DNA from: a virus
Taxonomy: Duplodnaviria > Caudoviricetes
DNA: 57,466 nt
Direction: 5' to 3' (one strand)
Virus record (IMG/VR): IMGVR_UViG_3300048026_000121
Location: 1-57,466 of that record
A model generated the notes under the pieces. The model did not search any database. It worked only from the letters and a program-made list of their open reading frames with translations, and was not told where the DNA came from. Shown piece by piece: positions 33,503-51,698 of this stretch (position 1 is its first letter; each line of letters opens with the position of its first letter). Both the position numbers and the translations under genes were made by a program.

Positions 33503-34273
33503 CTATACTGCTAAAGTCTGCCTAAGCTTTGTTGTATCTGCTTTAGTAAACTCTTGGTAATTACCTTTTAAATTTTCTGGGAAATCAATAAACTCTATAC
33601 TTGCACCAGTCTTGTCTGAGACCTCTAGGGCTACATCGTAAAAGCTACGAGGATTGCCTGTGCCAAAATTCCATATACCTGACTCGTCCACATCAAAGAA
33701 TCTTTGCTGATCCATTACGACTTTACCTACATGTATAAAGTCTCTTAAATACTTAGGGGAACCCTTGAAGATCTTTATCTTCCCAGTCTTCTTAGCCTGT
33801 TCCATAAACTTGGCGAAGGGGCTTGCTTGGTTTCCTTTATGTTCCTCGTGGGGACCATGTACGTTGAAGTATCTAAATATTTGAGTAGTGATATCAGCAT
33901 TTCTAAACTCTATATACTTTTCAAACAGTGCCTTACTACGAGCATAGTGGTTCTGAGGATCAACAGGAGATGTCTCCTTGAAGTCTGACTTTAGTCCATA
34001 GACTGAAGCACTAGAAGCAAACTGAAACTTAACATTGTTTTTAATACACTCTTCGTACAACTTAATACTGAACTCTACGTTCTGTCTGTAGATCTTAGAT
34101 ATATTTGTTTCAGTTGTAGAGCTAATAGCACCTAAGTGTATTACCCAGTCCAGTCCCTCTACACCAGGAAAGGACATGCCCCACTCATTCTTTACCACTT
34201 CGTGGTGAGGTGAGAGGGCATTGACCATATTCTGACCAATGAAGCCATTACTCCCAGTGACTAGTATCTTCAT
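33503..34273 (-). CDS. hldD: ADP-L-glycero-D-manno-heptose 6-epimerase
   Basis: TGSNGFIG, HLGAISSTTE, ASSASVYG, YARSK, RYFNVHGPHEEHKG.QAS, RDFIHV and YQEFTKAD are HldD/RfaD-type motifs. Confidence 0.9.
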   Translation of the reverse strand: MKILVTGSNGFIGQNMVNALSPHHEVVKNEWGMSFPGVEGLDWVIHLGAISSTTETNISKIYRQNVEFSIKLYEECIKNNVKFQFASSASVYGLKSDFKETSPVDPQNHYARSKALFEKYIEFRNADITTQIFRYFNVHGPHEEHKGNQASPFAKFMEQAKKTGKIKIFKGSPKYLRDFIHVGKVVMDQQRFFDVDESGIWNFGTGNPRSFYDVALEVSDKTGASIEFIDFPENLKGNYQEFTKADTTKLRQTLAV

Positions 34274-34626
34274 GCCTGACTGTCACCTTTTGCTACTCTG
34301 TAATTATCTTCTACAGAATCAGGAGTAGAGACCTCTAGGATTGTTCCCTCTTCTAAGCAAATGATTTGATGAGGTACAAGAGTCGGGTTCGTCCAGGCAT
34401 CGCCCTCACCCAAGGACTCAACGTGTGTGGTGGCGTCTTCTGTGTCGATCCAAAGAACCTCAAACTTGCCAGATAGAACGTACCAACTTTCCTTCTTATC
34501 TTTGTGGAAGTGCATAGAGAATTTAGCACCAGTATTAAAAGATAAAAACTTACTACAATACTCGTCATTTGTTACCCATATAAGTTCAGAACCCCAGCCC
34601 TTCTTAACGAAGCCTTCAAGTCGCAT
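34270..34626 (-). CDS. Cupin-fold sugar isomerase-like protein
   Basis: KGWGSE, SMHFH..K.E.WYV, PH and EVST, resembling the type II phosphomannose isomerase cupin. Confidence 0.85.
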   Translation of the reverse strand: MRLEGFVKKGWGSELIWVTNDEYCSKFLSFNTGAKFSMHFHKDKKESWYVLSGKFEVLWIDTEDATTHVESLGEGDAWTNPTLVPHQIICLEEGTILEVSTPDSVEDNYRVAKGDSQA

Positions 34627-35374
34627 GTTGTGTTACCTCTGCTAGTGTAGGAGCATATACTCCTCTGTGTTGGACAGTTATGGCTGCTGCATCCATTGCA
34701 AACTTTATAGCCTTGTCTATATCATAAGTATCTAGATAGTTGAATACAAGACCTGCAAGGAATGTATCTCCTGCACCACACACATCATGAGTTTCTACAC
34801 TAGGGGGTAGGTAAGTTCTGTTCTTATACTCGACTTTCTTTGAGCCGTATGTGACGATCAGATCGTCTGTTAGTGTTTCTGCTGCCTCCAGTTCATACTG
34901 GTTTATCTTTACGAAGCAGCCATCAAACTGAGCTAAGTTGGTCTTCTTAGTATCTACAAAGATAGGGCCGTTATACTTAGCTCTGAAATCTTTTATGTCA
35001 CCTTCGGCTACAAACCCTTTGTTGTAGTCTGAGATAACAACAGCATCATACATACTTACGTCTTCGTCTGCTGTATCTATGTGCTCAGTCTTAATCTTTT
35101 CATCTACTCTGATCAGTTGCTGACCAGTCTTATCTTCAATGTACCTGTGCTTACGCTCTCTGTACTCTGTTATGATGTCTACCCTAGTCCCTAGGTTCAC
35201 TAAGTTGTTGTAGACGTTATAGGCCATGCCTCTTTTGATTACAGAAGATACAAGATCAAAGACAGGGACAGGAGCCTCTGGGCTTATTCTTGATACAGTG
35301 CCTGTGTGATATTCATCATAGCAACTGTCGCCTAGTAATAAAATCTTCGATTGTTTTTGTGGTAGACTGCCCAT
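34616..35374 (-). CDS. hldA: Heptose-7-phosphate kinase (RfaE/HldE domain I, PfkB family)
   Basis: RISPEAPVPV, ISDYNKG and DVCGAGDTF. Confidence 0.9.
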   Translation of the reverse strand: MGSLPQKQSKILLLGDSCYDEYHTGTVSRISPEAPVPVFDLVSSVIKRGMAYNVYNNLVNLGTRVDIITEYRERKHRYIEDKTGQQLIRVDEKIKTEHIDTADEDVSMYDAVVISDYNKGFVAEGDIKDFRAKYNGPIFVDTKKTNLAQFDGCFVKINQYELEAAETLTDDLIVTYGSKKVEYKNRTYLPPSVETHDVCGAGDTFLAGLVFNYLDTYDIDKAIKFAMDAAAITVQHRGVYAPTLAEVTQHAT

Positions 35375-35726
35375 TGGTTCTCTCGTAGAATACTATTTCT
35401 TTGCAGTACTCCTCCCCAAGTATTGTCTTCCCTTTCCAATCAGATCCTTTTACCATTACATCAGGCTGATAAGCTTTTATAATACCTACCAAGTCCTCGT
35501 CTGTATCAAATACTCTGACACTATTGACAGGCTTCAACATAGACATTATATGTTTACGTATTGACAAAGTATTGAAAGGTCTCCCAGTACCCTTGTTATA
35601 CTCAATACGACTGTCTGTGTCAATAGCTACTAACAAATGACCACCTAACATCCCTGCAAAATCAAGGAGATCTAGGTGCCCAGAGTGCAGTACATCAAAT
35701 GCACCATTAACAAAAACTTTCTTCAT
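35316..35726 (-). CDS. hldC: Heptose-1-phosphate nucleotidyltransferase (RfaE/HldE domain II)
   Basis: NGAFDVLHSGH, KGTGRP, KGSDW and RTNGQSTT. Confidence 0.88.
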   Translation of the reverse strand: MKKVFVNGAFDVLHSGHLDLLDFAGMLGGHLLVAIDTDSRIEYNKGTGRPFNTLSIRKHIMSMLKPVNSVRVFDTDEDLVGIIKAYQPDVMVKGSDWKGKTILGEEYCKEIVFYERTNGQSTTKTIEDFITRRQLL

Positions 35727-35743: not shown

Positions 35744-36391
35744 ATGTCCAGATTTAAACATATTATTTCACAAGAACCAAGTCAACAACCTCAACAAGAG
35801 TTACCGCCAGATTGGCCTACAGTCTTCCCTAAGTCTATTGTAGGTCTAGATCGTGATGGTGTTATCAACGTAGACAAAGGACACTACATTACAGATCCTG
35901 AAGACTTTGAGGTGTACCCTGAGTCCTTAGCAGCTATCCACAAGTTACGTATCAAAGGATACAAAGTGGTAATATTAACTAACCAGGGTGGTATTACCAA
36001 GGGACTACAAACACATGAGCAGGTAGAAGCTGTACACCAACGTATGTTTGAAATGTTTGGACAAGCAGGTATCTACACTATTGATGGTCTCTTCTACTCT
36101 GAGTCTTCATTAAAAGAAGACATGTATGCCAAACCTAATCTAGGTATGTTTCACAGAGCAGAGAAAGAAATCTTTGGTGGAAAGACTAGGTTCAAAGACA
36201 AAGGTTTCTATGTGGGCGATAAGATGTCTGACCTTAAAGCTGCTGAGAGAATTGGTGCCACCCCAATCTTAGTAAGAACTGGTCATGGGGTGGACACTGA
36301 AGGAGAGCTAAAGAAGTTCTCAAAAGAGAAGTTAAGAAAGAAGACTAAGGTTTTCGATAACCTCCTCCAATTTGTGGATAGGCTACCTTAG
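35744..36391 (+). CDS. gmhB: Heptose-1,7-bisphosphate phosphatase (HAD family)
   Basis: LDRDGVIN, TNQGG, KPNLGM, VGDKMSD and VRTGHG. Confidence 0.9.
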   Translation: MSRFKHIISQEPSQQPQQELPPDWPTVFPKSIVGLDRDGVINVDKGHYITDPEDFEVYPESLAAIHKLRIKGYKVVILTNQGGITKGLQTHEQVEAVHQRMFEMFGQAGIYTIDGLFYSESSLKEDMYAKPNLGMFHRAEKEIFGGKTRFKDKGFYVGDKMSDLKAAERIGATPILVRTGHGVDTEGELKKFSKEKLRKKTKVFDNLLQFVDRLP

Positions 36392-38103
36392 GCAGCCTTT
36401 TCCTCTACTTCTTCAACTACTGAGTCATTGTAAGGATACTTCACCAACAGACCTTGTTCTGGTAGGTACAAGTAATTTATGTCTGAGTTCTTAATAGTTC
36501 TCATTGCATCGTCTAGTGTTTCTACCAGTGGCTCACCTGCTAAGTTAAAGCTGGTGTTGAACAAAATAGGTACACCAGTAATCTTACGGAACTCATCAAT
36601 CAAAGTGTGATACGTTCCATTCTGCTCTTTAGTCACAGTCTGAATACGGCAAGTACCGTCTACGTGTGTGATAGCTGGGCACTCTCCATGCTTCTCTAAC
36701 TTGAAGTCCATTGCATACATCATGAATGGTGACTCTTCCATACCGTAGGTATCAAACCATTCCTCAAAGTGTTCCTGCATCATAGAACCTGCAAAGGGTC
36801 TAAACCACTCACGTCCTTTGACCTTGTTCACAGTGTCCTTGCCATCAGGGTCTGTGGGATCGTACAGGATAGAACGATTCCCTAGTGCACGAGGTCCAGC
36901 CTCAGAACGTCCTTGGTACAAAGCTACAATATTCTTCTCAGAGATAAGCTTTGCTACATCAGCAGGTTTTACTTCCTCAGTTTCAATGTCGCCAAAGTCA
37001 TAAGACTCTTCACGTTCAGGACCAAGATACAAAGTGTCTAGTGGACGAATAGTTTTGTCTTTTGTTTCTGTGTAGTGCACTAGCTGTGCTAGACCGATTG
37101 CTGTACCACCATCATGAGAGATAGGATCAACATAAATGTTAAGGTCAGGGAAACGTTTCTTGTAGTAGTAGTTTGCTACGCAGTTAAGACCATAACCACC
37201 TGCAATGACGATGTTCTTTTTACCAGTCATTGATACAGCTTTTTCAATCAAGTCACCTACAAGAGTTTGTGTTTCGTCTTGTACTGCCCAAGCTAAATTC
37301 TTAGCTGCATCTGTAACTTTACTAGGATCGTTATGCCAAGCACGAGGATCTTCAGTCAAGGTTAAGTAGGGGTGGCGAGTATGATCAATATGAGCACCAG
37401 CAGGATAGTTAGGGACAAAAACATTCTTGTTACCTCTACCATTAAAGAACAGGCTGGGGATCATCTCATCATACGTACCGTATGGTGCAAGACCCATTGT
37501 CTTACCTGCTTCAATAAAACCAAAGCCTAGGTATTCTGATACAGCTTCGTATCCTTTAACAAGTGTGATGGCATTGTCCATTTCAATGTTTTCAGAAGTA
37601 ATTCTTTGGGTATCATAGTTACCACCAAAGGCTTGGAATACAGGTTTAATACCTTCTTCGTAGTCACAGTTAAAGATAGTCTCTGTCTCAAACCCTGGGT
37701 TCTTTTGACCCTCTTCATTTATTTGGACCTCTTGACGTGTACCAGATCCGTCTACAATAACAGCAGCAGCATCTTCAAAACCTGAGTTGTAGAAAGCTGC
37801 AGAAGCATGTCCAAGGTGGTGGATATGTCCTAAGTTGATTACTTGTACGTTTGGATAAAACTTACGAACAAGACCAGAATAAGGATCTTCACCAGTCCAA
37901 GGTAGTTGTGGGAACTGTGAATGTGTTCCACCTAAAACAATGACATCAATCCCATAGTGAATTGCTTCAAGGATACCTTTGTATGGGTTGCCATCATATT
38001 TACTACGAGACAGACGTTCTTCTTCAATGTAGAACTTAATCTCACCATCTACTAACAAAGCAGCAGAACCATTATGACCTGGGTTAATTGCTAGGATATT
38101 CAT
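36388..38103 (-). CDS. Carbamoyltransferase (NodU/CmcH/TobZ family)
   Basis: GHNGSAAL, EERLSR.K, HHLGHA, GGYGLNC, EAGPRALGNRS, KGREWFRPFA, HVDGTCRIQTV and NTSFN. Confidence 0.95.
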   Translation of the reverse strand: MNILAINPGHNGSAALLVDGEIKFYIEEERLSRSKYDGNPYKGILEAIHYGIDVIVLGGTHSQFPQLPWTGEDPYSGLVRKFYPNVQVINLGHIHHLGHASAAFYNSGFEDAAAVIVDGSGTRQEVQINEEGQKNPGFETETIFNCDYEEGIKPVFQAFGGNYDTQRITSENIEMDNAITLVKGYEAVSEYLGFGFIEAGKTMGLAPYGTYDEMIPSLFFNGRGNKNVFVPNYPAGAHIDHTRHPYLTLTEDPRAWHNDPSKVTDAAKNLAWAVQDETQTLVGDLIEKAVSMTGKKNIVIAGGYGLNCVANYYYKKRFPDLNIYVDPISHDGGTAIGLAQLVHYTETKDKTIRPLDTLYLGPEREESYDFGDIETEEVKPADVAKLISEKNIVALYQGRSEAGPRALGNRSILYDPTDPDGKDTVNKVKGREWFRPFAGSMMQEHFEEWFDTYGMEESPFMMYAMDFKLEKHGECPAITHVDGTCRIQTVTKEQNGTYHTLIDEFRKITGVPILFNTSFNLAGEPLVETLDDAMRTIKNSDINYLYLPEQGLLVKYPYNDSVVEEVEEKAA

Positions 38104-38104
38104 T

Positions 38105-39031
38105 TTACTTCACCTTCTTTTCGATATCTTTTACGATGTCAGCATAAATACTGTTTATCTCTTCGTCTGTAAACTCAACAGTTACTTCATTAACTCTATC
38201 TGCTAAGTGTGACTCAAGACCTGAAATACGTATAGGTGAGTAAACTTTAGGAACAGCCCTTTCAATTATATTAAAGTAATTTGGGTATGTAGTATTTATA
38301 GGGAAAGTAGATCCTATAATTACTGAACCAGGTTTATTAAGTGCCCTTGCCATATGCTGACCTACAGAATCACAACCTACAAAGTAATCTGCTGCATCAA
38401 TAAAGGATGACCACATACGAAGGTCTGCTTCAGGCTTCATGGTGTATGTGTCTTCAGGCATCCAGAAGTTTTTTTCAGCAAACAAAACCAGATTGTATTT
38501 CGTTGCTAGTTTCTTTACTAGTTTAAGATACGTATCTGGATTAATAGAACGAGAAGATTGATCTAGTAAAACACCTTCCTGTGGTTTCTCAATGGATCTA
38601 CCAAAAGGTTGTATGACAATAGTCTTTTGCTTTTGTTGTTGCTGTCTTACTTGCTGCATAAAGTTAGCAGCATTCAATTCCTCTTGTCTATTTGTTTTAA
38701 GGACAGGAGCACCAAGATCAGAGTGGTCATCAGTCTCATTGATCAAGTAATCAAAAGCTTCAGCAAGAGACTTCTCTTGTTTATAGTAGCCTGGAACTCT
38801 GTATGGTTCTGGAGAGATTACTCTGTCAGCATCCATAAAGAATTGATCCATTGATCCCTTTTGGTCTGGGTTAAATACTTTATCATGTAGCTCAGGGATA
38901 CCCCAGTACAAAGAGTCCCAACCCATGACCATAACTCTAAAGTCTTTATCTTTTTTAGAGTACTTGATAAGAGCAGGAATAGCTGCTATAGCTCTACCTG
39001 CACCACCATCAATCATAAAAACAGTTTTCAT
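38105..39031 (-). CDS. GT-B glycosyltransferase, GT9/heptosyltransferase-like
   Basis: N-terminal DGGAGRAIAAIPAL, VIQPFG, and ADYFVGCDSVGQHMARA resembling the WaaC/WaaF DSGxxHxAxA motif; adjacent to the heptose pathway. Confidence 0.75.
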   Translation of the reverse strand: MKTVFMIDGGAGRAIAAIPALIKYSKKDKDFRVMVMGWDSLYWGIPELHDKVFNPDQKGSMDQFFMDADRVISPEPYRVPGYYKQEKSLAEAFDYLINETDDHSDLGAPVLKTNRQEELNAANFMQQVRQQQQKQKTIVIQPFGRSIEKPQEGVLLDQSSRSINPDTYLKLVKKLATKYNLVLFAEKNFWMPEDTYTMKPEADLRMWSSFIDAADYFVGCDSVGQHMARALNKPGSVIIGSTFPINTTYPNYFNIIERAVPKVYSPIRISGLESHLADRVNEVTVEFTDEEINSIYADIVKDIEKKVK

Positions 39032-39103: not shown

Positions 39104-42100
39104 TTAACAAGAACAAATAATTCCTTCATTATACAACCTTAAAGCACCTTCGTAGTAGCCTTCTCCAGCATTTAACTTGTGAGGAGCTTTAGCATTAAGG
39201 GCAGAAGGTGAATTGTATGAAGGTGCTGAAAAATTATTATTAATTCTCAAGTAACATGCATATCTTTTTGTTGCATCTCTATGTAAATGGCAAGGTTTGA
39301 TACAGCAGAATATCATGTTAGAATGACATGCAATACCTTGTCTGTAAGGATTACAACATGTTAATCTGTAATGACAACGAACACATTCATGATCATAGAA
39401 TTGATATAGCTGAGTACACAGACCAGTACCACTAAAAAGACCTCCACAAAGACAAGTACAATGGTACATACCTATGGTTTGATTCATCATGTATGTTCTG
39501 GTTATATTGAACATACAGCAGCATTGCATGGTAGCCCCACCTGAAATAGCATGTGGGCAGAAACAACCTCCATAACACAATCTACAGAATCCTGGGAAGA
39601 ACATATAGTTTGAATCACCAAAACCAAATGTACAAGCATTAAACTGCATTCTGCAAGCTGCACTTGCTGAGAATGGGTGATAGGCTAAAGATCCTAACCA
39701 TCTTATATTCCAAAAGTTCTTCATGATTTCGGATGTATTCCAACCAATACATTCTAGAGGAACATTGAATGGTGCTTTCATTCTTCCTGTTTCTGGGATA
39801 ACTTGCATAATACAGCCATTACATCCACCATATAGAGAAGCACAAGCACCTGTACACAGACACCCAAAGTACTTACTACTACCTATACAGCAGCATTTTG
39901 CTGGCATAATACCACAGTGATTAAAGCAACAAACCCCACCCATAATGAACTGGACGCCACCTACGTCACTTGAATGATCCGACCCATATGTTGTAAAGTC
40001 TAATCCGATTGTTCGGCAGTTTGTACAACCGATGCAAGCTCCAACAACCCCTTCAAACTGTAAACAGTGTCTTAGGCAACAGCAGAGTGTTGGGTCAACA
40101 AACTTACAGTTTACACACTTATCAGTTGAAGGCCAGAGTTGATTAACCTTACTAACACAGCAATTAGTTAAGTCAAAGCATATGGCTCCAAGCCACATAA
40201 AGGTACTTCCAAAGGTGAAACATGTACACGTACCACAGGCAAGAATACCACCTATAAAGACTAGATGATCAGTGCAACAGTTGTAGTACCAGTTTGGTCT
40301 ACAGAAGTTTCCTGTACCAACCAAGTTTAAGTTTGTACCGTTACACCCCCCAAAAGTACCCCAAGTAAAGTGGAAATCGTGTCCTTGGCAATGAGCCAAA
40401 AGACTTGTAGCACAACACCCAGTTATTGCTTGAATACAAGCTGCTACAGTACACTTTGGGCAAGCATCATTGTTACCAAGCCAGAGCCTACCTGCAATGT
40501 CACAAGGAGTACAACCACAATTACACAAATGCATTGGGCTTGAAATATACCATTTAGCCATATGTCTTCTGGCATCTTGAGACTGAATCATTGCGTAGAA
40601 GTTGATACTACACTCAATTTGACAAGTTGATTTATTAAATACTGTATAGACAGGTGTATTTCTACTTGCTTGATCACAATAGCTAGTGTGGGAGTTATAG
40701 TCTCCATTACCAAACATGAGAAGTCTGTTAGCACAAGTAGGGTGTTGTATGATATCACCATGAGTAGTTGGGTCCATCATTGGAACACCACCTGGGCATG
40801 TGTAAACAGAAATCTTACCAGTATCATAAAGAGCACAACGAGTTCTGTCTCTATTTCTACCAACACTACCCTGGGAAGTGAACCCCATCATGCAGAATAT
40901 TCTTTCTGTAGTTGGGTAACAGTTTGTTAGGAATACACACCCTTTGCAACACATCCAAGGCATCATGCACTTAGGTTGAATTGGTGACCAGTACTGGAAA
41001 GATTTATGAGGTCTGCAGAATTTAGTAATAATTAAAGTACAATGTGTTTCAAATCTACATGAACAACCACTACATTGGAAAGCACATGCAGGGGAGTATG
41101 CACAAAGACATGGGAAACACAGCCAGTCAAACATCCATAAAACATCACCATCACAGTCCCAATGCTTCATACCTGAGTTATACCCACCTGCTGTACCTCC
41201 AGGCACACACAACGCAGTTTGACCTGTGCAGGATGCTGGGTAAAGAGTAAGCCACATATTAGGGCAGCAACGAGGATCAAATGATTTTATACATATACCA
41301 TCACAACTTTTTGGGCATTTTGCAGTGTACATGCCTTTATTCCAAATACTAGGAGGACCACTAATGTCAGTCCTACTAGTAAACCAAGGCATCAGACAAC
41401 CTGCTACTCCACCTGTTCCATAACAAATAGACCCAAGACCATCTACTTTTAGGTTTAAACAATTATAACATGGCTTATAACAAGTATTTTGCCAATGGAA
41501 TGGGTAAGGATTTATAGGTCTACCACTATGAGTAAAGAAAGCATAATCACAAACCTCCTCTTCAGGTCCACCTAAAGCTGAGTTTGTACATGCTAGATAA
41601 ATTAAAGGGGGTGCTAAGTAAGGGTGTGCACCAGCAGAAGAACCTGGTGCAGACAGTGGCATTGAGATCATTGGCCCCAAACAAGAAGTTGCCTCAAAGT
41701 AAGAAGGAGCAAAGAAAGGTCCAATATCAATACCTTGTGTACAAGTACAACAGCAAAATGCTGCTATTTGACCTGTTTTACTGTAAACACCACCCTTTTT
41801 AGTGATGACTGCTTCTTCCCAGTCTTGTCTGTGTTCATAACAAGCTACTGCGTATTGTTTTTGTTGGTGCTTTGTATAAATACTACCATCAATCATTGGC
41901 TGATATGTTCCACAAAGTGCGTGGCAAGGCCATAGATTGTTATTTTCGTAACCAAGCAGACAAGGTATATTTCTACATCTACAGCCCCAAGGTTTAACCC
42001 AAGTGTATGCACAGCCCTGCCCTAGACCACAGCACGTACAAACAACAACTTCACCAGTGGTATACTTTACTTCTCCAGGTACATCAGGTCTCCATGCTCC

Positions 42101-42532
42101 AATACAACTGTTAAGGCTGCATCTCCAATTCGTATAGGTGCCAGTAATGTAGAATGGCATTCTCATTCCTGGAGAGGCGTAAAGGTTATTATTTAGAGTT
42201 TGATCATATGGGCATCTAGCAGTTTCATCACACTTACAGAAATTTGATCTGACCGTCATATACATTGTAGAGTAGTAGTCGTTAGAGAACTCATCTGTCT
42301 CTAGCCCACCACCACCAACTGAAGCCCATTCAGTACCGTTGTACGAGATAAGAGAACCTAGGTCTGTATCAAAATAGATAGACCCAGTAGCAGGAGAACC
42401 AGGTCTCTGGGCTGTCGTCCCACTAGGGGCATCCATACGTGAACTAGCTGTAATACAACACGAGGTAACACAACAGGCACAGACGTTCCTGCTGTTATCG
42501 ACCACCGTAGTGCCATTAATCTTATATGCCAT
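39104..42532 (-). CDS. Very Cys-rich tail-fibre-associated protein
   Basis: 1142-aa ORF with GGAG RBS and about 125 Cys by hand count; N-terminal PSGTTAQRP...G.IYFDTD...YNGTEW fibre module. Confidence 0.85.
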   Translation of the reverse strand: MAYKINGTTVVDNSRNVCACCVTSCCITASSRMDAPSGTTAQRPGSPATGSIYFDTDLGSLISYNGTEWASVGGGGLETDEFSNDYYSTMYMTVRSNFCKCDETARCPYDQTLNNNLYASPGMRMPFYITGTYTNWRCSLNSCIGAWRPDVPGEVKYTTGEVVVCTCCGLGQGCAYTWVKPWGCRCRNIPCLLGYENNNLWPCHALCGTYQPMIDGSIYTKHQQKQYAVACYEHRQDWEEAVITKKGGVYSKTGQIAAFCCCTCTQGIDIGPFFAPSYFEATSCLGPMISMPLSAPGSSAGAHPYLAPPLIYLACTNSALGGPEEEVCDYAFFTHSGRPINPYPFHWQNTCYKPCYNCLNLKVDGLGSICYGTGGVAGCLMPWFTSRTDISGPPSIWNKGMYTAKCPKSCDGICIKSFDPRCCPNMWLTLYPASCTGQTALCVPGGTAGGYNSGMKHWDCDGDVLWMFDWLCFPCLCAYSPACAFQCSGCSCRFETHCTLIITKFCRPHKSFQYWSPIQPKCMMPWMCCKGCVFLTNCYPTTERIFCMMGFTSQGSVGRNRDRTRCALYDTGKISVYTCPGGVPMMDPTTHGDIIQHPTCANRLLMFGNGDYNSHTSYCDQASRNTPVYTVFNKSTCQIECSINFYAMIQSQDARRHMAKWYISSPMHLCNCGCTPCDIAGRLWLGNNDACPKCTVAACIQAITGCCATSLLAHCQGHDFHFTWGTFGGCNGTNLNLVGTGNFCRPNWYYNCCTDHLVFIGGILACGTCTCFTFGSTFMWLGAICFDLTNCCVSKVNQLWPSTDKCVNCKFVDPTLCCCLRHCLQFEGVVGACIGCTNCRTIGLDFTTYGSDHSSDVGGVQFIMGGVCCFNHCGIMPAKCCCIGSSKYFGCLCTGACASLYGGCNGCIMQVIPETGRMKAPFNVPLECIGWNTSEIMKNFWNIRWLGSLAYHPFSASAACRMQFNACTFGFGDSNYMFFPGFCRLCYGGCFCPHAISGGATMQCCCMFNITRTYMMNQTIGMYHCTCLCGGLFSGTGLCTQLYQFYDHECVRCHYRLTCCNPYRQGIACHSNMIFCCIKPCHLHRDATKRYACYLRINNNFSAPSYNSPSALNAKAPHKLNAGEGYYEGALRLYNEGIICSC

Positions 42533-42562: not shown

Positions 42563-42778
42563 TCAAACCCATTCGGTTCCGTTGTAAGAAACTACTGTGC
42601 CTAAATCTGTATCAAAAAAGATATGACCTGTATTTGGTGAACCAGGTCTCTGTGCTGTTGTACCAGAAGGTATAGTGAGGACGTTAGCTGATACTATCGT
42701 CCCCTGTACTGAAGGTGTTCCTGAAGGAATGTTTTTACTGTCGTCAATAACAGTTGTGCCACTAACCTTTAGAGCCAT
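42563..42778 (-). CDS. Small fibre-module protein paralogous to the N-terminus of the Cys-rich protein
   Basis: MALKVSGTTVIDDSKN...PSGTTAQRPGSPNTGHIFFDTDLGTVVSYNGTEW. Confidence 0.8.
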   Translation of the reverse strand: MALKVSGTTVIDDSKNIPSGTPSVQGTIVSANVLTIPSGTTAQRPGSPNTGHIFFDTDLGTVVSYNGTEWV

Positions 42779-45700
42779 TCTCTAGTTCCTCTACTTTACC
42801 TTGTAGACACTTCACAGTTTCAATGAGTGCACCTACCAAGCCATTATAGTTGACTGATTTGTAACCATCGTCATCTGTTATAACAAGTTCTGGGAATGCT
42901 TCTTCTACTTCTTGAGCAACAACACCCATTGTGTATTTACCAGAATCTTTCCAGCTATAGTTTACACCTCTGATCTGACCGATCTTGCAGTAAGCATCTT
43001 CTACTGTAACAATGTTGTCCTTGCATCTGCAATCAGAAGTAGAGTTGAAGTCAACAGCACAAGCTACGTTAGTTCTAACGGCAGATACACCACAAACAAT
43101 GTTAGCCTTTACACAACACTCTACACAGTGGCAGTTCTCTGTTCTTGCACCGTAGGAGGTAGTACATAACATAGCTGTGTTATTAAAGAGCAAGCACACG
43201 CCACTATTACATGTACCTTTCCACATCCATTCGTTAGTAACATCATTATAGATACCAACAGAATCAGCATTGCCCATGAATACCCATTTGTCTTCAATGG
43301 AGTACCCAGGCCAGTTACCATCACCACCTACAACAGAGATAGAGCCGTAGGTACCTCCTGATTGACAGATACATCTGCCACCTACTGCAAGCCAAGTACC
43401 ACCACAGATAATTGGGGATAGTACACAGGTAGTACCACATACTTTAGGAGCTTTAACACAACAAGAAGCACAGGAACATGTAACAAATGAATAGGGGGAT
43501 TTAAAGCAATTAGCAGCACAGATACATGCACCATTAAAGTTGTTAGATGTAGAGCCATTCGTTGCAGCTTTACCTGACAAACATGTTGCTAGTCCATCAA
43601 CGTTAGCTACTGTGTGGTTGTGGCTATCGTCTGCAATAGTAAGGCTAAGGTTAGCATTACCAAGGTTTGTGAATGTAGCAGAACCTGTAGCATCTCCACA
43701 GATACAAAGTGTAGGATCAGAAGTAGCAGTCGTATTGACTGTGAAGTTACCTGAACCATCTACTGAAGTAGAACCTGTTACTGCACCACAGACACACAGT
43801 GTTCTAGCAGTAGCCCAAGCACTTGCTGTGTCAGCATTACCAGTAACAGCACCTGTGACAGGAGCACATACTCTGGCAAATGTTACTGTATCAGATGTGC
43901 CTACTGCTTGTCCAATGTTAATTCCATTACCATCAACAGTAACACCTGTACCTGCATCAGCAGTAAAAGTTGTACCAGTTAAGGTAAGACCATTACCTGC
44001 ATCGTAAACAGCAGTCTCAGCTACGACAGTAAAGGTAATGTTTGTTGTACCGAATGTTATAACACCAGATGTGTTCATAACATAAAGTTCACCAGAACCA
44101 GTGTTACCTTCTTTTACGAAGAATGCATCACCTTCACCTAGTGCATCTTGGTCTGAAGCACCATAGCTGTCAGCATCTGTAGCACGAGTAAGAACCCAGT
44201 TAGTCGAAGCTGAACCAGTGTTGGTAACTGTGTAGACACCATTCTCGTAGCCATTGGTTTGGCTGTAGATAAGAACACGATCATTTGTGTTTAGTGTTAC
44301 ACCATCAATAACTAGGGCAGCTTGTGCCCCATTGTTAGTAAGGGTAGCACCTACACCATTCGTACCATTGTCGTAGGTAGCACTTAGGTTACCTGCACTG
44401 TCTGGTGATTCAACTCGTACTGGATCGTGATAGTGAATACCAGCAGCAGCAATCGTATCAACGTACTCTTTAGTTGCAAGTTGACAAGCCTGAGTTGGGT
44501 TACCTGTAACACAGACAGATCCAAAGCATACATTGTCTGATGTGCCAACAGCCTGTCCAATAGCTATTGCACCAGATGTGTAAGTAACACCTGTACCACC
44601 TGATAGGTGGCTGTCTACTCTAGCTGTTGTAAAGTACTGGTTTGTACCTTCCGCTAGGTCATCTGTGTCATGGTTACTTATATCACTTACAGTACCAGTG
44701 ACATCACCATTAACATTTCCTGTCAGTGTTCCATATAGGCTAGAGACACAAACAGCACCTGTACCGTAGATGCAGTTAGTACCTGCATTAAGATTGCCAC
44801 CAAGAGCAGGAGAAGAATCCCCTGCAACACATGTAAGAGCATCACCTAGTGTGAATGCTGCAGAAGACCATGCCGAACCATCATACACTCTTAGAGCATT
44901 GTCGGTGGTGTTCCAGTATAATGCACCAGTAATAAGTCCATCACCATCGTTGTCTACTGATGGGTCTGAAGCTTTATCACCAAGGTATCTGTCATCAAAG
45001 TCATCATAAGAAGTAGCTGCATTTGTTGCTGAAGTAGCAGCAGCAGTAGCTGAGTTAGAAGCATTTGTTTCCGATGTAGCTGCAGCAGTTGCACTATTAG
45101 CAGCACAAGTAGCTGAAGTGGCTGCATCTGTAGCTGACTGGAGAATACCATCAACATAAGTCTTCGTAGTCAAATCAGCAGCATCAGTAGGTGTATAAGT
45201 CGTAGTGATCTTATTGGCACCCATATCAATAGTGCCAGTTACAGTACCACCAGAACAAGCTAGTCTTGTATCACGTTGAGTATCTGTGTATGTCTTTGTG
45301 GCTGCATCTTGTGCTAGGGTAGGATCGCCCAGTCCTGTGATCTTTGATGTACCCATAGCAATAGCACCCGACATGGTTCCACCAGTCAGATTTAGCTTTA
45401 GAGCATCTTGATCATCTACATAACCCTTACGAGTAAGAGTATCAGCAGTAGCAGGTGTAGCTGTAGATGTAGCTTTATTAGAACCTAATGCAATGTCACC
45501 AGTCATTGTGCCACCAGCCAATGGTAGCTTACCTGCAATGCTTGTTGTTATTGTTGTACTAAAGTCTGGGTCATCCCCAATAGCTGCAGCAATCTCGTTA
45601 AGAGTATCTAGTGTGCCTGGTGCAGAGTCAATCAAATTAGAAACAGAGGTATCTACATACCCCTTCGTTGCAGCATCTGCATCAGCAGTTGGAGTTGCAA

Positions 45701-47042
45701 GAGAAGTAATTTTTGCAGAACCCATATCAAGTCCTGCTGTACCTGTCATGTTAATATCACAGAAAGTAGAAGTACCTACTGAGGTTACATCACCAGTTAG
45801 ATCACCTGTTACGTTCCCTGTAACTGCACCTGACACATCACCTGTGACATCCCCAACAAAACAAGTGTTAGCTGTAATGGTTGTACCAGTTATAGCATCA
45901 GGCGTGGTAGCACCAACTACACCATCAAAGTTTCCTGTGTGACAACCTACTGCATTACCAGTTAGGTTGCCTGTTACATTACCTGAAACAGCACCAGTAA
46001 CATCACCTACGAAGCAAGTGTTAGCTGTAACTGTTGTACCTGTTATAGCACCTGCTGTAGTCCCACCAATAGTAGCACCGTCAATAGTGCCCCCATTGAT
46101 ATCGACTGAAGAAAAAGTACCCTGTCCTGTCGTACTAACTGTAGTAAAGCTACCTGCAGCAGCACTAGAAGCACCGATAACAGTGCCATCAATATTACCT
46201 GCATTGATATCTACTGTGGCTAGAGTTGCTGTACCTGTGGCAGAAAGGTCTGGTACAGTTACTGTATCACCAAAACCTGCAACACCTGTAACACCAAGTG
46301 TACCTGCCAGTGTAGTATTTCCTGTAATTCCTGCAGTTCCACCAACAGTAAGGTTACCACTAGAGCCAAGAGTTGTAAATTCACCAGAGGCAGCAGTCGT
46401 ATTACCAATTATAGTACCATCAATAGTACCACCATTAATGTCTGCTGTGTCAGCTACAAGGCTGTCAATATTTGCTGTTCCAGTAATGTAAGCATCATTC
46501 CACTCACTACCTGTAGCACCTAGATCATATGTTGCATCTGCAGAAGGGATAAGGTCTGAGGCAACATCAGCATTTACTGTAACAGTATCACTATCGTCAC
46601 TACCAAGAGTAGTATTCCCATTAACGGTAAGGTTACCCGTAATAGTAGCATTCTCGTGAATCGCCAGAGTGTCGATATAACCCACACCATCAATGTAAAG
46701 ATCTTTAAACTCAGCAGCCGAAGAACCCAAATCAATATCTTCATCAGTGACAGGAACAATAGCTCCATCTTGTATCCTTACCTGCTCTACTGCTGCATTA
46801 CCAACGTTAGTAAAGAAATTAATTCTGTTGTTAGCTGTATCAACAACAACTTTACTATACTGGTTAGTGTCTGAAATTAGAGGAATGAGGCCACCTTCTC
46901 CAGTAGAAGTGCCATCATGTCTGTGACCTGTGCTTGCACTAAATGCTGCTACAAGCTGTTCAAATTCATTGTGTACTGGTTCAGCTTTAATAACCTGACC
47001 AGAAACAATATCAGCAGCACTTTGTCTTGTATAACCTGCCAT
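42762..47042 (-). CDS. Tail fibre with C-terminal peptidase S74 intramolecular chaperone
   Basis: GGTIDG and GxVTG repeats, DAATKxYVD repeats, APGTLDTLNEIAAA; SDxRxK...GVVAQEVE...VNYNGL chaperone domain. Confidence 0.9.
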   Translation of the reverse strand: MAGYTRQSAADIVSGQVIKAEPVHNEFEQLVAAFSASTGHRHDGTSTGEGGLIPLISDTNQYSKVVVDTANNRINFFTNVGNAAVEQVRIQDGAIVPVTDEDIDLGSSAAEFKDLYIDGVGYIDTLAIHENATITGNLTVNGNTTLGSDDSDTVTVNADVASDLIPSADATYDLGATGSEWNDAYITGTANIDSLVADTADINGGTIDGTIIGNTTAASGEFTTLGSSGNLTVGGTAGITGNTTLAGTLGVTGVAGFGDTVTVPDLSATGTATLATVDINAGNIDGTVIGASSAAAGSFTTVSTTGQGTFSSVDINGGTIDGATIGGTTAGAITGTTVTANTCFVGDVTGAVSGNVTGNLTGNAVGCHTGNFDGVVGATTPDAITGTTITANTCFVGDVTGDVSGAVTGNVTGDLTGDVTSVGTSTFCDINMTGTAGLDMGSAKITSLATPTADADAATKGYVDTSVSNLIDSAPGTLDTLNEIAAAIGDDPDFSTTITTSIAGKLPLAGGTMTGDIALGSNKATSTATPATADTLTRKGYVDDQDALKLNLTGGTMSGAIAMGTSKITGLGDPTLAQDAATKTYTDTQRDTRLACSGGTVTGTIDMGANKITTTYTPTDAADLTTKTYVDGILQSATDAATSATCAANSATAAATSETNASNSATAAATSATNAATSYDDFDDRYLGDKASDPSVDNDGDGLITGALYWNTTDNALRVYDGSAWSSAAFTLGDALTCVAGDSSPALGGNLNAGTNCIYGTGAVCVSSLYGTLTGNVNGDVTGTVSDISNHDTDDLAEGTNQYFTTARVDSHLSGGTGVTYTSGAIAIGQAVGTSDNVCFGSVCVTGNPTQACQLATKEYVDTIAAAGIHYHDPVRVESPDSAGNLSATYDNGTNGVGATLTNNGAQAALVIDGVTLNTNDRVLIYSQTNGYENGVYTVTNTGSASTNWVLTRATDADSYGASDQDALGEGDAFFVKEGNTGSGELYVMNTSGVITFGTTNITFTVVAETAVYDAGNGLTLTGTTFTADAGTGVTVDGNGINIGQAVGTSDTVTFARVCAPVTGAVTGNADTASAWATARTLCVCGAVTGSTSVDGSGNFTVNTTATSDPTLCICGDATGSATFTNLGNANLSLTIADDSHNHTVANVDGLATCLSGKAATNGSTSNNFNGACICAANCFKSPYSFVTCSCASCCVKAPKVCGTTCVLSPIICGGTWLAVGGRCICQSGGTYGSISVVGGDGNWPGYSIEDKWVFMGNADSVGIYNDVTNEWMWKGTCNSGVCLLFNNTAMLCTTSYGARTENCHCVECCVKANIVCGVSAVRTNVACAVDFNSTSDCRCKDNIVTVEDAYCKIGQIRGVNYSWKDSGKYTMGVVAQEVEEAFPELVITDDDGYKSVNYNGLVGALIETVKCLQGKVEELENGSKG

Positions 47043-49318: not shown

Positions 49319-49342
49319 TACAAAAATCCTTCAGATAGCCTA

Positions 49343-49366
49343 AAGGGGCCAGTCGCCCAGCCCCTA
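49343..49366 (-). terminator. GNRA-loop hairpin after the capsid gene (probable leaky terminator)
   Basis: AGGGGCTGG-GCGA-CTGGCCCCT followed by a short T run on the - strand. Confidence 0.6.
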
Positions 49367-49378
49367 AAGTTTTAAGTA

Positions 49379-50452: not shown

Positions 50453-50658
50453 GATTAAATCCTCCATGATATTTGGCTTTAGAAGAAAGCTAAACACCTG
50501 AAAGAGGCTGTTACTTTTCTAGGGTGCAGAAAGGTACTCAGTTGCGCAACCGAATACCCACTGGGCCTATACTTGAACAGGTGGTTCTTTGTAGTTTAGA
50601 CTTTTATGAAAAAGTATCTATAGAGGTAGTCCCGAAGGAGGCTCTATATTAGATACGT
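50453..50658 (-). ncRNA. Putative structured leader RNA of the capsid gene
   Basis: About 205 nt non-coding with a cUUCGg-capped hairpin, the GGTATTCGGTTGCGCAACTGAGTACC hairpin and a CACCTG/CAGGTG long-range pair. Confidence 0.45.
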
Positions 50659-50659
50659 G

Positions 50660-50689
50660 TAGTTATATTGAACACTTCTTAAGTGTCAA
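50660..50689 (-). promoter_or_regulatory. Capsid gene promoter
   Basis: TTGACA-N16-TATAACTA. Confidence 0.7.
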
Positions 50690-50693
50690 TAGT

Positions 50694-51650: not shown

Positions 51651-51698
51651 AGTATTTTCCTTATGTTGGGGCCAGGGTTGATTCCCTGGGTAGCCTTA

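What the first reader, a model, noticed from the sequence alone, without database searches (positions are those of the whole stretch)
42762..47042. Gradient of Cys substitution into standard tail-fibre motifs
Seen: no Cys in roughly the first 340 residues, then rising density towards the tip. Cys sits where familiar motifs have other residues: RLACSGGT versus the internal repeats KLPLAGGT/KLNLTGGT; ARTLCVCGAVTGS; GLATCLSGK; and SDCRCK and VKCLQ versus the usual SDxRLK and VKEL in the S74 chaperone. Inference: selection adds Cys at tolerant positions in the distal fibre regardless of fold, as expected for acceptor sites or a thiol/metal coat. Cys in the cleaved chaperone is not explained by a coat and needs accounting for.
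Basis: partly seen in the sequence, partly recalled or inferred. Interest (0 to 1): 0.75.

Follow-up and report, generated by a model that had tools for sequence, protein, structure and literature searches.

The report
Cysteine-loaded phage tail tip with sugar cassette
The outer end of this marine phage's tail fibre and the tail protein encoded next to it are packed with cysteine, and such cysteine-packed proteins turn up almost only beside one sugar-and-carbamoyl modifying gene set, which points to an undescribed way of chemically dressing a virus tail.

Summary
The fibre (42762-47042, minus strand, 1426 aa) has 43 Cys, none before residue 343 and 25 in residues 1154-1352. Every quoted motif is present.

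The pattern goes by domain and is not a smooth gradient: residues 854-1058 are Cys-free here and carry 0-1 Cys in 17 of 17 homologues.

The bias acts on the protein. TGY is raised only in the coding frame.

The next gene (39104-42532) is 11% Cys. It belongs to a discrete class of roughly 6-13% Cys proteins.

This class is tied to the downstream cassette of a GT9-like transferase, a TobZ-like carbamoyltransferase and ADP-heptose genes:
- 21 of 21 loci anchored on the hyper-Cys protein have the transferase.
- 59 of 61 loci anchored on the transferase have hyper-Cys genes.
- 6 of 6 phage records I examined have both.
- Among fibre-anchored relatives, 6 have both, 7 have neither and none is discordant.

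Fibres with more than 0.5% Cys occur only in cassette-bearing phages, but some cassette phages have Cys-free fibres.

My best reading is that the thiols are targets of this cassette. That is inferred and not shown. Cross-linking by disulfides or metals is the main rival. Six literature searches found no description.

The parts
46017..47042 (-). Tail fibre residues 1-342, the Cys-free proximal anchor.
   Evidence: 0 of 342 residues are Cys. This part is 45-59% identical to the fibres of Roseobacter phages CRP-1, -2 and -212.
44484..46016 (-). Tail fibre residues 343-853, repeat-rich shaft with scattered Cys.
   Evidence: 12 of 511 residues are Cys. The region includes ANTCFVGDVTG twice and RLACSGGT.
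43869..44483 (-). Tail fibre residues 854-1058, a Cys-free inserted domain.
   Evidence: 0 of 205 residues are Cys here, and 17 of 17 homologues have 0-1. The region matches PDB 9efk orf22 at E 7.7e-13.
43038..43868 (-). Tail fibre residues 1059-1335, the Cys-dense distal region.
   Evidence: 27 of 277 residues are Cys. There are seven CxC pairs in the whole fibre against 2.3 expected. TLCVCG aligns to TITLTG of the Dec protein, PDB 6e3c.
42762..43037 (-). Tail fibre residues 1336-1426 plus the stop codon: the S74 intramolecular chaperone, Cys-bearing allele.
   Evidence: Pfam PF13884 scores 47.2 bits. Cys are at 1338, 1340, 1352 and 1412. Fourteen of 14 Cys-type homologues, the window included, share SDCRCK and VKCLQ. 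Five of 5 Cys-free-type homologues have none of these Cys.
42563..42778 (-). 71-aa ORF that overlaps the fibre's end by 17 bases. It is a Cys-free copy of the next protein's N-terminal domain.
   Evidence: It is 56% identical to residues 1-70 of the hyper-Cys protein. A like ORF was found in 17 of 24 related loci, once before each of the two hyper-Cys genes in L024.
39104..42532 (-). Hyper-Cys tail protein, 1142 aa with 126 Cys (11.0%). About 75 N-terminal residues are conserved and the body is hypervariable.
   Evidence: Searches give the ORF and the counts. All 48 database relatives have 8.1-12.7% Cys. No Pfam or NCBIfam family matches. The N-terminus matches tail and virion PHROGs.
38105..39031 (-). 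GT9-like glycosyltransferase, 308 aa.
   Evidence: Sequence hits are weak: Pfam GT9 at 17.5 bits against a cut-off of 22, and TIGR02201 at E 5.3e-5. The AF2 model has pLDDT 70. Its best 30 Foldseek matches are all GT9 enzymes: 3tov, TibC, WaaC and WaaF, at E 3e-6 to 3e-4.
36388..38103 (-). TobZ/NodU-type carbamoyltransferase, 571 aa.
   Evidence: Pfam Carbam_trans_C scores 207 bits and Carbam_trans_N scores 70.8 bits. TobZ (3ven) matches at E 6.7e-52.
35744..36391 (+). GmhB-like heptose-1,7-bisphosphate phosphatase of the HAD family.
   Evidence: NCBIfam NF006506 matches at E 6.3e-37, below its curated cut-off.
35316..35726 (-). Heptose-1-phosphate adenylyltransferase, like HldE domain II.
   Evidence: TIGR02199 matches at E 1.3e-27, below its cut-off.
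34616..35374 (-). Heptose-7-phosphate kinase, like HldE domain I (PfkB family).
   Evidence: TIGR02198 matches at E 1.1e-34, below its cut-off. Pfam PfkB matches as well.
34270..34626 (-). Small cupin protein, 118 aa.
   Evidence: Weak cupin hits: WbuC at E 2e-6 and a bicupin family at E 3e-7. The cyanophage counterpart is annotated 'cysteine dioxygenase' in GenBank records.
33503..34273 (-). ADP-glyceromanno-heptose 6-epimerase-like SDR enzyme.
   Evidence: TIGR02197 matches at E 9.9e-66, 222 bits against a cut-off of 274.6.

Best explanation
The Cys enrichment is a real, selected, protein-level trait of the host-contacting end of the tail. It covers the distal beta-strand regions of the fibre, the fibre's S74 folding chaperone, and above all the 11%-Cys protein encoded next to it.

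The trait is functionally coupled to the cassette just downstream. That cassette holds a GT9-like transferase, a TobZ-type carbamoyltransferase and enzymes that make ADP-heptose.

The most likely mechanism runs as follows. In the reducing host cytoplasm, before lysis, the free thiols are the sites of a modification made by this enzyme pair. One version is an S-linked heptose that is then O-carbamoylated. The other is direct S-carbamoylation. In the fibre the Cys occupy the polar face of short beta-strands, where relatives carry Thr, Ser, Asn or Ala, so they would form exposed ladders. Chaperone Cys would be modified or tolerated while the chaperone is still attached.

What is shown: the composition, the domain pattern, the periodicity, the turnover and the gene linkage. 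What is inferred: that the thiols are the acceptors, the chemistry, and the exposure.
For: 1. Protein-level bias. TGY runs at 9.4-11.0 per 100 codons in the coding frame of the Cys-dense parts. It is not raised in the other two frames compared with neighbouring genes.

2. Discrete class. Of 789 same-strand ORFs of at least 150 aa in 80 transferase-anchored loci, 628 have under 4% Cys, none has 4-6%, and 161 have 6-13.3%.

3. Linkage both ways.
- 21 of 21 assessable loci found through the hyper-Cys protein carry the transferase.
- 59 of 61 assessable loci found through the transferase carry 1-3 hyper-Cys ORFs ending within 5 kb upstream on the same strand. One of the two misses, L172, has three on the other strand.
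- 6 of 6 examined phage records have both: P-SSM2, S-SSM7, S-CAM1, S-CAM3, Sf-FS3 and AG-345-O18.
- Among 13 fibre-anchored relatives with at least 8.4 kb downstream, 6 have both and 7 have neither.
- CRP-1 and CRP-235 have neither, and their fibres have 0 of 1080 and 3 of 1419 Cys.

4. Several kinds of substrate. The hyper-Cys proteins in this slot have several N-terminal types with no BLASTP match to the window's protein and different or no PHROG families. What is conserved is the composition, not one fold.

5. The carbamoyltransferase accompanies the transferase in 37 of 37 loci with full flanks. Heptose genes do so in 24-26 of 37.

6. Fibre Cys look exposed and exchangeable.
- Hydrophobic residues are enriched 1.6-1.8 fold at positions +/-1, and Cys 3.2-3.5 fold at +/-2 and +/-4.
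- Spacings 1, 2, 3, 4 were observed 15, 62, 14, 60 times against 40, 36.5, 32, 30 expected.
- The two Cys of TLCVCG align to the two Thr of TITLTG in the Dec protein.
- Cys are no better conserved than average: 31 of 43 shared at 77% overall identity.

7. The transferase model's best structural matches are GT9 enzymes. They include TibC, which heptosylates Ser on a beta-helix protein (PMC4358343, passages).
Against: - No modification was observed. Every link between thiol and enzyme rests on gene neighbourhood.
- S-glycosylation by a GT9-type enzyme has no precedent that I know of. TibC modifies Ser and not Thr (PMC4358343).
- The transferase misses the curated cut-offs of Pfam and NCBIfam. 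It has no sequence match in the PDB, even as a profile. TM-scores to GT9 structures are only 0.40-0.53.
- In the hyper-Cys family, Cys is the best-conserved residue: 42-46% Cys-to-Cys at 16-22% identity for other residues. About 45 Cys columns are invariant or nearly so in 12 sequences. This fits a structural role for part of them.
- CxC pairs tend to be lost together, 6 of 18 cells against 52 of 413 for other pairs. This small sample hints that pairs act as units, as in cross-links.
- Some cassette phages have Cys-free fibres.
- At two S74 positions and at residue 596, Cys replaces a conserved Leu, which is probably buried.
- Loci are related to one another, so the counts are not independent events.
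Confidence: 0.4

Rival explanations
1. The Cys are structural. They cross-link the trimeric fibre tip and the hyper-Cys protein through disulfide 'staples' that form on release into oxidising sea water, or through metal-thiolate sites that form in the cytoplasm. The cassette then serves the same proteins in another way, for example by putting heptose on Ser or Thr to keep Cys-rich, aggregation-prone proteins soluble or shielded.
For: - Cys is the most conserved residue of the hyper-Cys family, and about 45 Cys columns are invariant or nearly so.
- CxC pairs and even spacings put Cys side by side on one strand face.
- CxC pairs are lost together more often than other pairs: 6 of 18 cells against 52 of 413.
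- There is a precedent for disulfide-linked cyanophage tail fibres in Pam3 (PMC9942802, passages).
- From recall: T4 gp37 binds iron through HxH motifs at the same kind of strand positions.
- Metal sites could form before the chaperone is cut off, which would account for the S74 Cys.
Against: - More than half of the Cys positions change at about 25% identity.
- In the fibre, Cys are no better conserved than average.
- Total Cys numbers are often odd: 123, 123, 139.
- CxxC is not enriched. Spacing in the hyper-Cys protein is close to random: 19, 15, 13, 12 observed against 13.8, 12.3, 10.9, 9.6 expected.
- Pfam found no thiol-redox enzyme among the window's ORFs that I scanned.
- The reading does not by itself explain the near-exclusive two-way linkage with the transferase and carbamoyltransferase.
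Confidence: 0.3
2. The cassette acts on the host envelope, as the 'LPS genes' label given to it in cyanophages suggests, or on some other non-protein target. It merely shares a host-range island with fast-evolving receptor-binding proteins, whose Cys richness has an unrelated cause.
For: - Sullivan et al. 2010 call these genes LPS genes of unknown function (PMC3037559, passages).
- GT9 enzymes are classically LPS-core heptosyltransferases, such as WaaC and WaaF.
- Heptose genes are missing near the transferase in 11-13 of 37 loci.
Against: - Unrelated genes sharing an island should give discordant combinations. None was seen in 13 fibre-anchored loci, and at most 2 in 61 transferase-anchored loci.
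- The linkage holds across podovirus and myovirus backgrounds and across hyper-Cys proteins with different N-termini.
- The genes sit inside the late structural operon on the same strand, between tail genes.
- From recall: marine Synechococcus LPS lacks heptose, so an LPS acceptor in those hosts is doubtful.
Confidence: 0.12
3. The pattern is an artefact: a mutational or DNA-motif bias, a wrong reading frame, or a non-standard reading of TGT and TGC.
For: TGT dominates: 34 of 43 Cys codons in the fibre and 94 of 126 in the neighbour. The coding strand is T-rich in this stretch.
Against: - TGY is raised only in the coding frame.
- The frames are open for 1426 and 1142 codons and are conserved as protein in many contigs.
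- 44 of 57 Cys gains or losses between the window and three close relatives need two or three base changes.
- Other genes of the same genome use Cys sparingly, including at an invariant Cys of the transferase family.
Confidence: 0.02

Closest known systems
Bacterial autotransporter heptosyltransferases (TibC, AAH) acting on TibA and AIDA-I
   Same: A GT9-type enzyme that uses ADP-heptose hyper-modifies many side chains spread along a beta-helical, surface-exposed adhesin, and it does so in the cytoplasm (PMC4358343, passages). TibC chains rank 2-4 among the structural matches of the phage enzyme's model.
   Different: TibC modifies Ser, is about 400 aa long, and forms a dodecamer that needs a four-Cys iron finger and an N-terminal beta-barrel. 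The phage protein has 308 aa and a single Cys. Its partners are hyper-Cys phage tail proteins, and it is always paired with a carbamoyltransferase.
Virion glycosylation in mycobacteriophages (Freeman et al. 2023; recalled, seen here only as a reference entry)
   Same: Phage-encoded glycosyltransferases sit beside structural genes and decorate virion proteins.
   Different: As I recall, the sugars there are O-linked to Ser- or Thr-rich tails of capsid and tail-tube proteins. No Cys-rich substrates, heptose pathway or carbamoyltransferase are involved.
S-glycosylated bacteriocins (sublancin with SunS, glycocin F; recalled)
   Same: A sugar is attached to a Cys thiol by a dedicated transferase encoded next to its substrate.
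   Different: The enzymes are GT2 (GT-A fold). They act on one or two sites of a small secreted peptide, the sugar is a hexose or HexNAc, and no virus is involved.
HypF carbamoylation of HypE (recalled; weak HypF hit at E 0.003)
   Same: An enzyme of the same carbamoyltransferase superfamily puts a carbamoyl group on a Cys thiol.
   Different: The phage enzyme is far closer to the O-carbamoyltransferases TobZ, NovN and GdmN (E 1e-44 to 7e-52), which act on hydroxyl groups of sugars or macrolides.
Disulfide- or metal-stabilised phage fibres (Pam3 gp24 with its wedge, PMC9942802 passages; T4 gp37 HxH iron sites, recalled)
   Same: Side chains at alternate strand positions of a trimeric fibre are used for covalent or metal cross-links.
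   Different: Those cases use a handful of fixed sites. Here the density reaches 10-13%, positions turn over quickly, and the trait is linked to a modification cassette.
S74 intramolecular chaperone domains of endosialidase and tail fibres (Pfam PF13884)
   Same: The C-terminal domain of this fibre is a clear member, with the S-D-x-x-x-K motif at its start.
   Different: This allele carries Cys at positions 3 and 5 of that motif, once in the following strand, and in the C-terminal helix. The Cys occur only where the client domain is itself Cys-rich.

Membership tests
Peptidase_S74 / intramolecular chaperone (PF13884) | Match to the family model above the curated cut-off. | tested here: met
   47.2 bits against a cut-off of 22, residues 1336-1387.
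Peptidase_S74 / intramolecular chaperone (PF13884) | Ser and Lys of the self-cleavage motif S-D-x-x-x-K. The role of these residues is recalled. | tested here: met
   S1336, D1337 and K1341 are present in TSDCRCK. Cleavage itself cannot be tested here.
Glycosyltransferase family 9 (heptosyltransferases) | Match to the family's sequence models above the curated cut-offs. | tested here: not met
   Pfam GT9 scores 17.5 bits against 22. TIGR02201 scores 22.4 against 170.2. There is no PDB sequence hit for the single sequence or for the profile.
Glycosyltransferase family 9 (heptosyltransferases) | GT-B fold closest to solved GT9 enzymes. | tested here: met
   Model pLDDT 70, pTM 0.72. Ranks 1-30 are all GT9 entries (3tov, 4rap/4rb4 TibC, WaaC, WaaF), with E 3e-6 to 3e-4 and TM 0.40-0.53.
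Glycosyltransferase family 9 (heptosyltransferases) | ADP-heptose as the donor. | not testable with these tools
   Context only: GmhB-, HldE- and HldD-like genes are adjacent. They lie within 8 kb in 24-26 of 37 related loci.
BAHT protein heptosyltransferases (TibC/AAH) | Four-Cys iron-finger insertion needed for the dodecamer (PMC4358343). | tested here: not met
   The 308-aa protein has only 1 Cys.
BAHT protein heptosyltransferases (TibC/AAH) | Heptose on Ser of a beta-helical substrate. | not testable with these tools
   No chemistry is available. The candidate substrates are rich in Cys.
TobZ/NodU O-carbamoyltransferases | Both Pfam domains above their cut-offs and a close match to solved members. 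| tested here: met
   Carbam_trans_C scores 207 bits and Carbam_trans_N 70.8 bits. TobZ matches at E 6.7e-52.
ADP-L-glycero-D-manno-heptose pathway (GmhA, HldE, GmhB, HldD) | All steps are encoded. | tested here: inconclusive
   GmhB-, HldE-I-, HldE-II- and HldD-like proteins are the best NCBIfam hits, but all fall below the curated cut-offs. No SIS-type GmhA is in the genome. A small cupin may fill that step, or the host may.
Disulfide-rich or metallothionein-like proteins | Fixed Cys framework or CxxC/CxC cluster motifs conserved across the family. | tested here: inconclusive
   42-46% of Cys are kept at 16-22% identity for other residues. About 45 columns are fixed in 12 sequences. Spacing is near random and CxxC is not in excess. 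The fold could not be modelled: pLDDT 33.
Glycocin-type S-glycosylation systems | A GT2 (SunS-like) transferase next to a small secreted Cys-bearing peptide (recalled). | tested here: not met
   The enzyme is GT9-like, with a GT-B fold. The candidate substrates are 240-1190 aa tail proteins.

The most novel reading that the evidence does not exclude
Abundant marine phages carry a dedicated system that modifies thiols on their tail tips. The carriers are HMO-2011-type podoviruses and several cyanomyovirus lineages. A GT9-like enzyme and a carbamoyltransferase would attach (carbamoyl-)heptose to dozens of Cys per tail fibre and to more than a hundred per hyper-Cys adhesin. That would be a virus-encoded S-glycosylation on a scale not seen in any organism. 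It would also explain the long-puzzling 'LPS genes' of cyanophages as virion-modification genes.
Probability: 0.3. Interest if true: 0.92.

Novelty: new variant of a known kind. Interest (0 to 1): 0.8.

Why it matters
The transferase family is very common in ocean data. There are 2288 clusters at 90% identity with E no greater than 1e-5 and at least 570 viral contigs. It occurs in phages of dominant marine bacteria.

Cyanophage genomics has so far called these genes 'LPS genes' and asked whether they are functional or merely 'stuffer DNA' (PMC3037559). The strict pairing with a discrete class of roughly 10%-Cys tail proteins gives that question a concrete, testable answer, because several carriers are in culture.

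If the thiols are modified, this would be:
- a new post-translational chemistry for viruses;
- a new substrate class for GT9-type enzymes;
- a likely determinant of host recognition, particle stability or protection from enzymes in sea water.

If instead the Cys are cross-links or metal sites, phages would be investing heavily in reduced sulfur and perhaps in trace metals, which bears on ocean sulfur and metal budgets.

Tried and rejected
- tblastn of the hyper-Cys protein against 50,697 phage records found no match at 1e-5.
- The AF2 model of the hyper-Cys protein, built from a 12-row alignment, has mean pLDDT 33 and is unusable. No fold search was run on it.
- The ESM Atlas gave no usable hit for residues 85-1142.
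- PDB sequence searches with the transferase, alone and as a 10-row profile, gave no hit at E up to 10.
- Pfam and NCBIfam find no family for the hyper-Cys protein. Pfam was also blank for 10 of 11 other hyper-Cys proteins scanned. One S-SSM7 protein just reaches Gly_rich_2, at 24.9 bits against a cut-off of 24.3.
- No Cys-poor homologues of the hyper-Cys body were found. phmmer over 1.84 billion representatives gave 671 hits. Among the best 150, every match to the body is Cys-rich, and the Cys-poor hits match only the N-terminal motif.
- The idea that the fibre's Cys-dense region was copied from hyper-Cys genes is rejected. The best BLASTP E-value against 102 such proteins is 1.1.
- DNA-level TGT bias is rejected.
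- I considered stop-codon read-through joining the 71-aa ORF to the hyper-Cys gene. They are in frame here, 246 bases apart. By my subtraction of coordinates, the offsets in L011, L012 and L015 are 247, 256 and 254, which are not in frame, so I dropped the idea without a proper test.
- CxC covariation gave only a weak signal: 6 of 18 against 52 of 413.
- I sent no complex-prediction job.
- I did not open Table S8 of PMC3037559 (virion proteomics). It may show whether relatives of the cyanophage hyper-Cys proteins are in the particle.

Full report
**What the window is.**
The window is a complete 57,466-base virus record. Its genes are those of an HMO-2011/CRP-type marine podovirus:
- terminase, SU10-like portal and adaptor, and a P22-type coat protein;
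- family-A DNA polymerase, primase-helicase, ThyX, ribonucleotide reductase and MazG.

The nearest cultured relatives by fibre are Roseobacter RCA phages CRP-1, -2, -212 and -235. The late operon on the minus strand runs in this order:
1. a 518-aa tail protein;
2. the fibre (42762-47042);
3. a 71-aa ORF;
4. a 1142-aa protein (39104-42532);
5. a GT9-like protein;
6. a carbamoyltransferase;
7. GmhB-, HldE-II-, HldE-I-, cupin- and HldD-like genes;
8. large Cys-free virion proteins.

**Observation check.**
The fibre has 43 Cys, none before residue 343. Counts per tenth are 0,0,3,1,2,6,0,5,15,11.
- Random placement would leave the first 342 residues empty with probability 7.6e-6.
- Residues 1154-1352 hold 25 of the 43 Cys (p 1.9e-11).
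- The other virion proteins are nearly Cys-free. The 1132, 1184 and 1056 aa proteins have none.
- All quoted motifs are there.

I make two corrections. First, a block at 854-1058 has no Cys here and 0-1 Cys in 17 of 17 aligned homologues, so the pattern follows domains and is not a smooth gradient. Second, a Cys-free proximal third is not general. Five of 17 homologous full-length fibres have Cys at residue 5, and seven have their first Cys at residue 65 or 66.

**The bias is on the protein.**
TGT plus TGC reach 9.4 per 100 codons in the coding frame of fibre residues 1150-1426, and 11.0 in the neighbouring gene. The other two frames are not raised compared with neighbouring genes. Between the window and three close relatives (L020, L005, L006), 44 of 57 Cys gains or losses need two or three base changes. 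ACT to TGT is the commonest path.

**What Cys replaces, and where it sits.**
- Across 19 homologous sequences, the residues aligned to the window's Cys are T 42, L 39, A 37, N 36, V 24, S 22, D 21, I 17 and G 13. This is roughly the fibre's own make-up.
- HMMER aligns ...ARTLCVCGAVTGS... to ...ARTITLTGAVTGS... of the phage L Dec protein (6e3c), so the two Cys stand for two Thr.
- In the 17 fibres with at least 10 Cys, spacings of 1, 2, 3 and 4 occur 15, 62, 14 and 60 times, against 40, 36.5, 32 and 30 expected when local density is kept.
- Hydrophobic residues are enriched 1.6-1.8 fold at +/-1 from a Cys, and Cys are enriched 3.2-3.5 fold at +/-2 and +/-4.

I infer that fibre Cys line the non-hydrophobic face of short beta-strands. 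Some exceptions replace a conserved Leu (residues 596 and 1340). Cys are not specially conserved in the fibre. Against L005, which is 77% identical, 31 of 43 are shared, 12 are lost and 18 are gained.

**The chaperone.**
The S74 domain comes in two discrete alleles.
- Fourteen of 14 sequences with a Cys-rich distal region, the window included, read SDCRCK and VKCLQ. Eleven of the 14 also have Cys at 1352.
- Five of 5 with a Cys-free distal region read SDINLK, SDQNLK or SDVTLK, and VKTLQ, VKELE or IKDLK.
- CRP-235 reads SDRRLK.

The chaperone Cys therefore travel with a Cys-rich client. A coat on the mature particle cannot explain them. A process that acts before cleavage can, such as modification, metal binding or templated folding. 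That is inference.

**The neighbour.**
The 1142-aa protein has 126 Cys, or 11.0%.
- All 48 relatives in the 5.8-billion-protein set have 8.1-12.7% Cys.
- About 75 N-terminal residues, including a fixed Cys motif, are nearly invariant. The bodies fall to 23-31% identity or below detection.
- Cys is the best-kept residue of the body: 42-46% at 16-22% identity for other residues. More than half of the positions still move.
- Spacing is close to random, with no CxxC excess.
- A full HMMER scan of 1.84 billion representatives found no Cys-poor homologue of the body.
- The fold could not be modelled: pLDDT 33.

A 71-aa ORF just upstream is a Cys-free copy of the N-terminal domain. It recurs in 17 of 24 loci.

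**The cassette.**
- The carbamoyltransferase is a clear TobZ/NodU-type enzyme.
- The 308-aa protein misses the GT9 cut-offs by sequence. Its model (pLDDT 70) matches only GT9 enzymes in its first 30 ranks, namely 3tov, TibC, WaaC and WaaF.
- The remaining genes best match GmhB, both halves of HldE, and HldD, all below the curated cut-offs.
- No SIS-type GmhA is present.

**Linkage tests.**
| Sample | Result |
|---|---|
| 24 viral contigs found through the hyper-Cys N-terminus | 21 reach far enough to judge, and 21 of 21 have the transferase (17 distinct sequences) |
| 6 phage records examined, of 23 that hold the transferase (5 cultured cyanomyoviruses and one single-cell virus, AG-345-O18) | 6 of 6 have two or three proteins of 8.0-11.6% Cys within about 4 kb upstream |
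| 80 contigs found through the 518-aa tail protein, blind to Cys and cassette | 13 have at least 8.4 kb downstream: 6 have both, 7 have neither, 0 are discordant (by hand, Fisher 1 in 1716) |
| 80 contigs found through diverse transferases (43-71% identical to that of P-SSM2) | 61 have at least 4 kb upstream, and 59 of 61 have hyper-Cys ORFs within 5 kb upstream on the same strand |

More detail on these samples:
- In the third sample, two of the six positive loci come from contigs already present in the first sample.
- In the fourth sample, the misses are L171 and L172. L172 has three hyper-Cys ORFs on the other strand. L171 has too little downstream sequence to judge.
- Of the 19 loci of the fourth sample that were not assessable, 12 are positive. 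The 7 negatives have under 1.9 kb of upstream sequence.
- In the fourth sample, Cys content is sharply bimodal: 628 ORFs under 4%, none at 4-6%, and 161 at 6-13.3%.
- The carbamoyltransferase is present in 37 of 37 loci with full flanks, and heptose genes in 24-26 of 37.
- CRP-1 and CRP-235 lack the cassette, and their fibres have 0 of 1080 and 3 of 1419 Cys.
- Fibres above 0.5% Cys were seen only with the cassette. Cassette phages can also have Cys-free fibres (L024, L068, L098).
- In AG-345-O18, a 1087-aa fibre-like protein has 1 Cys in its first 860 residues and 25 in the last 227. The window's pattern thus recurs in another lineage.
- All counts are of loci that share ancestry, not of independent events.

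**Reading.**
The two-way linkage holds across tail types and across hyper-Cys proteins with unrelated N-termini. It argues that the Cys-rich composition and the enzyme pair work together.

I favour thiol-directed modification in the cytoplasm, at confidence 0.4. The main rival is disulfide or metal cross-linking, with the cassette serving the same proteins in some other way (0.3). That rival is supported by the conserved Cys core and by weak co-loss of CxC pairs. A host-envelope role for the cassette (0.12) fits the old 'LPS gene' label (PMC3037559) but not the lack of discordant loci. An artefact is excluded for practical purposes.

**Known relatives.**
The closest working analogy is TibC/AAH heptosylation of Ser on beta-helical autotransporters (PMC4358343, passages). 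The phage enzyme lacks TibC's four-Cys iron finger, since it has only 1 Cys. I file it as GT9-like and not as a member of that family.

Four comparisons are recalled from memory and were not checked here:
- S-glycosylated bacteriocins;
- HypF and HypE;
- the iron sites of T4 gp37;
- mycobacteriophage glycosylation.

Disulfide-linked fibres in Pam3 were read in passages.

**Literature.**
Six full-text searches returned no paper that describes hyper-Cys phage tail proteins or links them to this cassette.
- The HMO-2011-type genomics paper mentions cysteine only in its reference list. It contains none of the terms glycosyltransferase, heptose, carbamoyltransferase or tail fiber (PMC9038755, term search).
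- A 2025 cyanophage paper has nothing on the point (PMC12801897, passages).
- The library does not cover subscription-only journals.

**Limits.**
There is no chemistry, no coordinates, and hence no measured exposure or Cys-Cys distances. One of the two models was unusable. Virion membership of the hyper-Cys proteins rests on N-terminal similarity to tail and virion PHROGs and on one borderline Gly_rich_2 hit.

Noticed in passing
window 42563-42778 (-): A 71-aa ORF overlaps the fibre's last 17 bases. It is a Cys-free copy of the hyper-Cys protein's N-terminal domain (56% identity). A like ORF sits before the hyper-Cys gene in 17 of 24 related loci, and before each of the two hyper-Cys genes in L024. 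Its role is unknown. It could be an adaptor, a cap or an assembly factor.
   Followed up: partly
window 24110-33491 and 47043-57179 (-): The rest of the virion module avoids Cys almost completely. The 1132, 1184, 1056, 372, 318, 309, 278, 239 and 214 aa proteins have 0 Cys. The three largest carry 27-39 Met each.
   Followed up: no
window 34270-34626 (-): This 118-aa cupin sits inside the heptose cassette. Its cyanophage counterparts are annotated 'cysteine dioxygenase', and the small HAD-like gene beside them (DIDGT motif) is annotated 'phosphoheptose isomerase'. No SIS-type GmhA is in this genome, so the cupin may be the missing isomerase. The GenBank labels look doubtful.
   Followed up: partly
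L028 (S-SSM7) 11977-15585; L034 (Sf-FS3) 8239-8871 and 13062-17520: In cyanomyovirus versions of the cassette, further candidate protein-modifying genes are interleaved: 2OG-Fe(II)/prolyl-4-hydroxylase-like genes, a second carbamoyltransferase and a tryptophan halogenase.
   Followed up: no
L029 (Marine virus AG-345-O18) 15395-18658: A 1087-aa fibre-like protein lies just after the cassette. It has 1 Cys in its first 860 residues and 25 in its last 227. This is the same split between a Cys-free proximal part and a Cys-dense distal part as in the window's fibre.
   Followed up: partly
L039 12486-13943; L041 15516-16910; L068 5777-10737; L098 5738-12103: Hyper-Cys proteins (6.6-10.8% Cys) occupy the same slot but have other N-termini. 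They have no BLASTP match at 1e-5 to the window's protein. The two scanned (from L039 and L098) have no Pfam or PHROG family.
   Followed up: partly
L172 12407-15372 (-): Here the three hyper-Cys genes (9.1-10.9% Cys) lie downstream of the cassette on the opposite strand. This is the only such arrangement among the 61 loci judged.
   Followed up: partly
window 13330-13406 (+): The single tRNA gene, tRNA-Arg(TCT), lies in the early region.
   Followed up: no
L024 2735-10283: An alternative layout: a short Cys-free fibre (858 aa) without S74, then a hyper-Cys protein, then a separate 280-aa Cys-free protein that ends in an S74 domain, then a second hyper-Cys protein, then the cassette.
   Followed up: no
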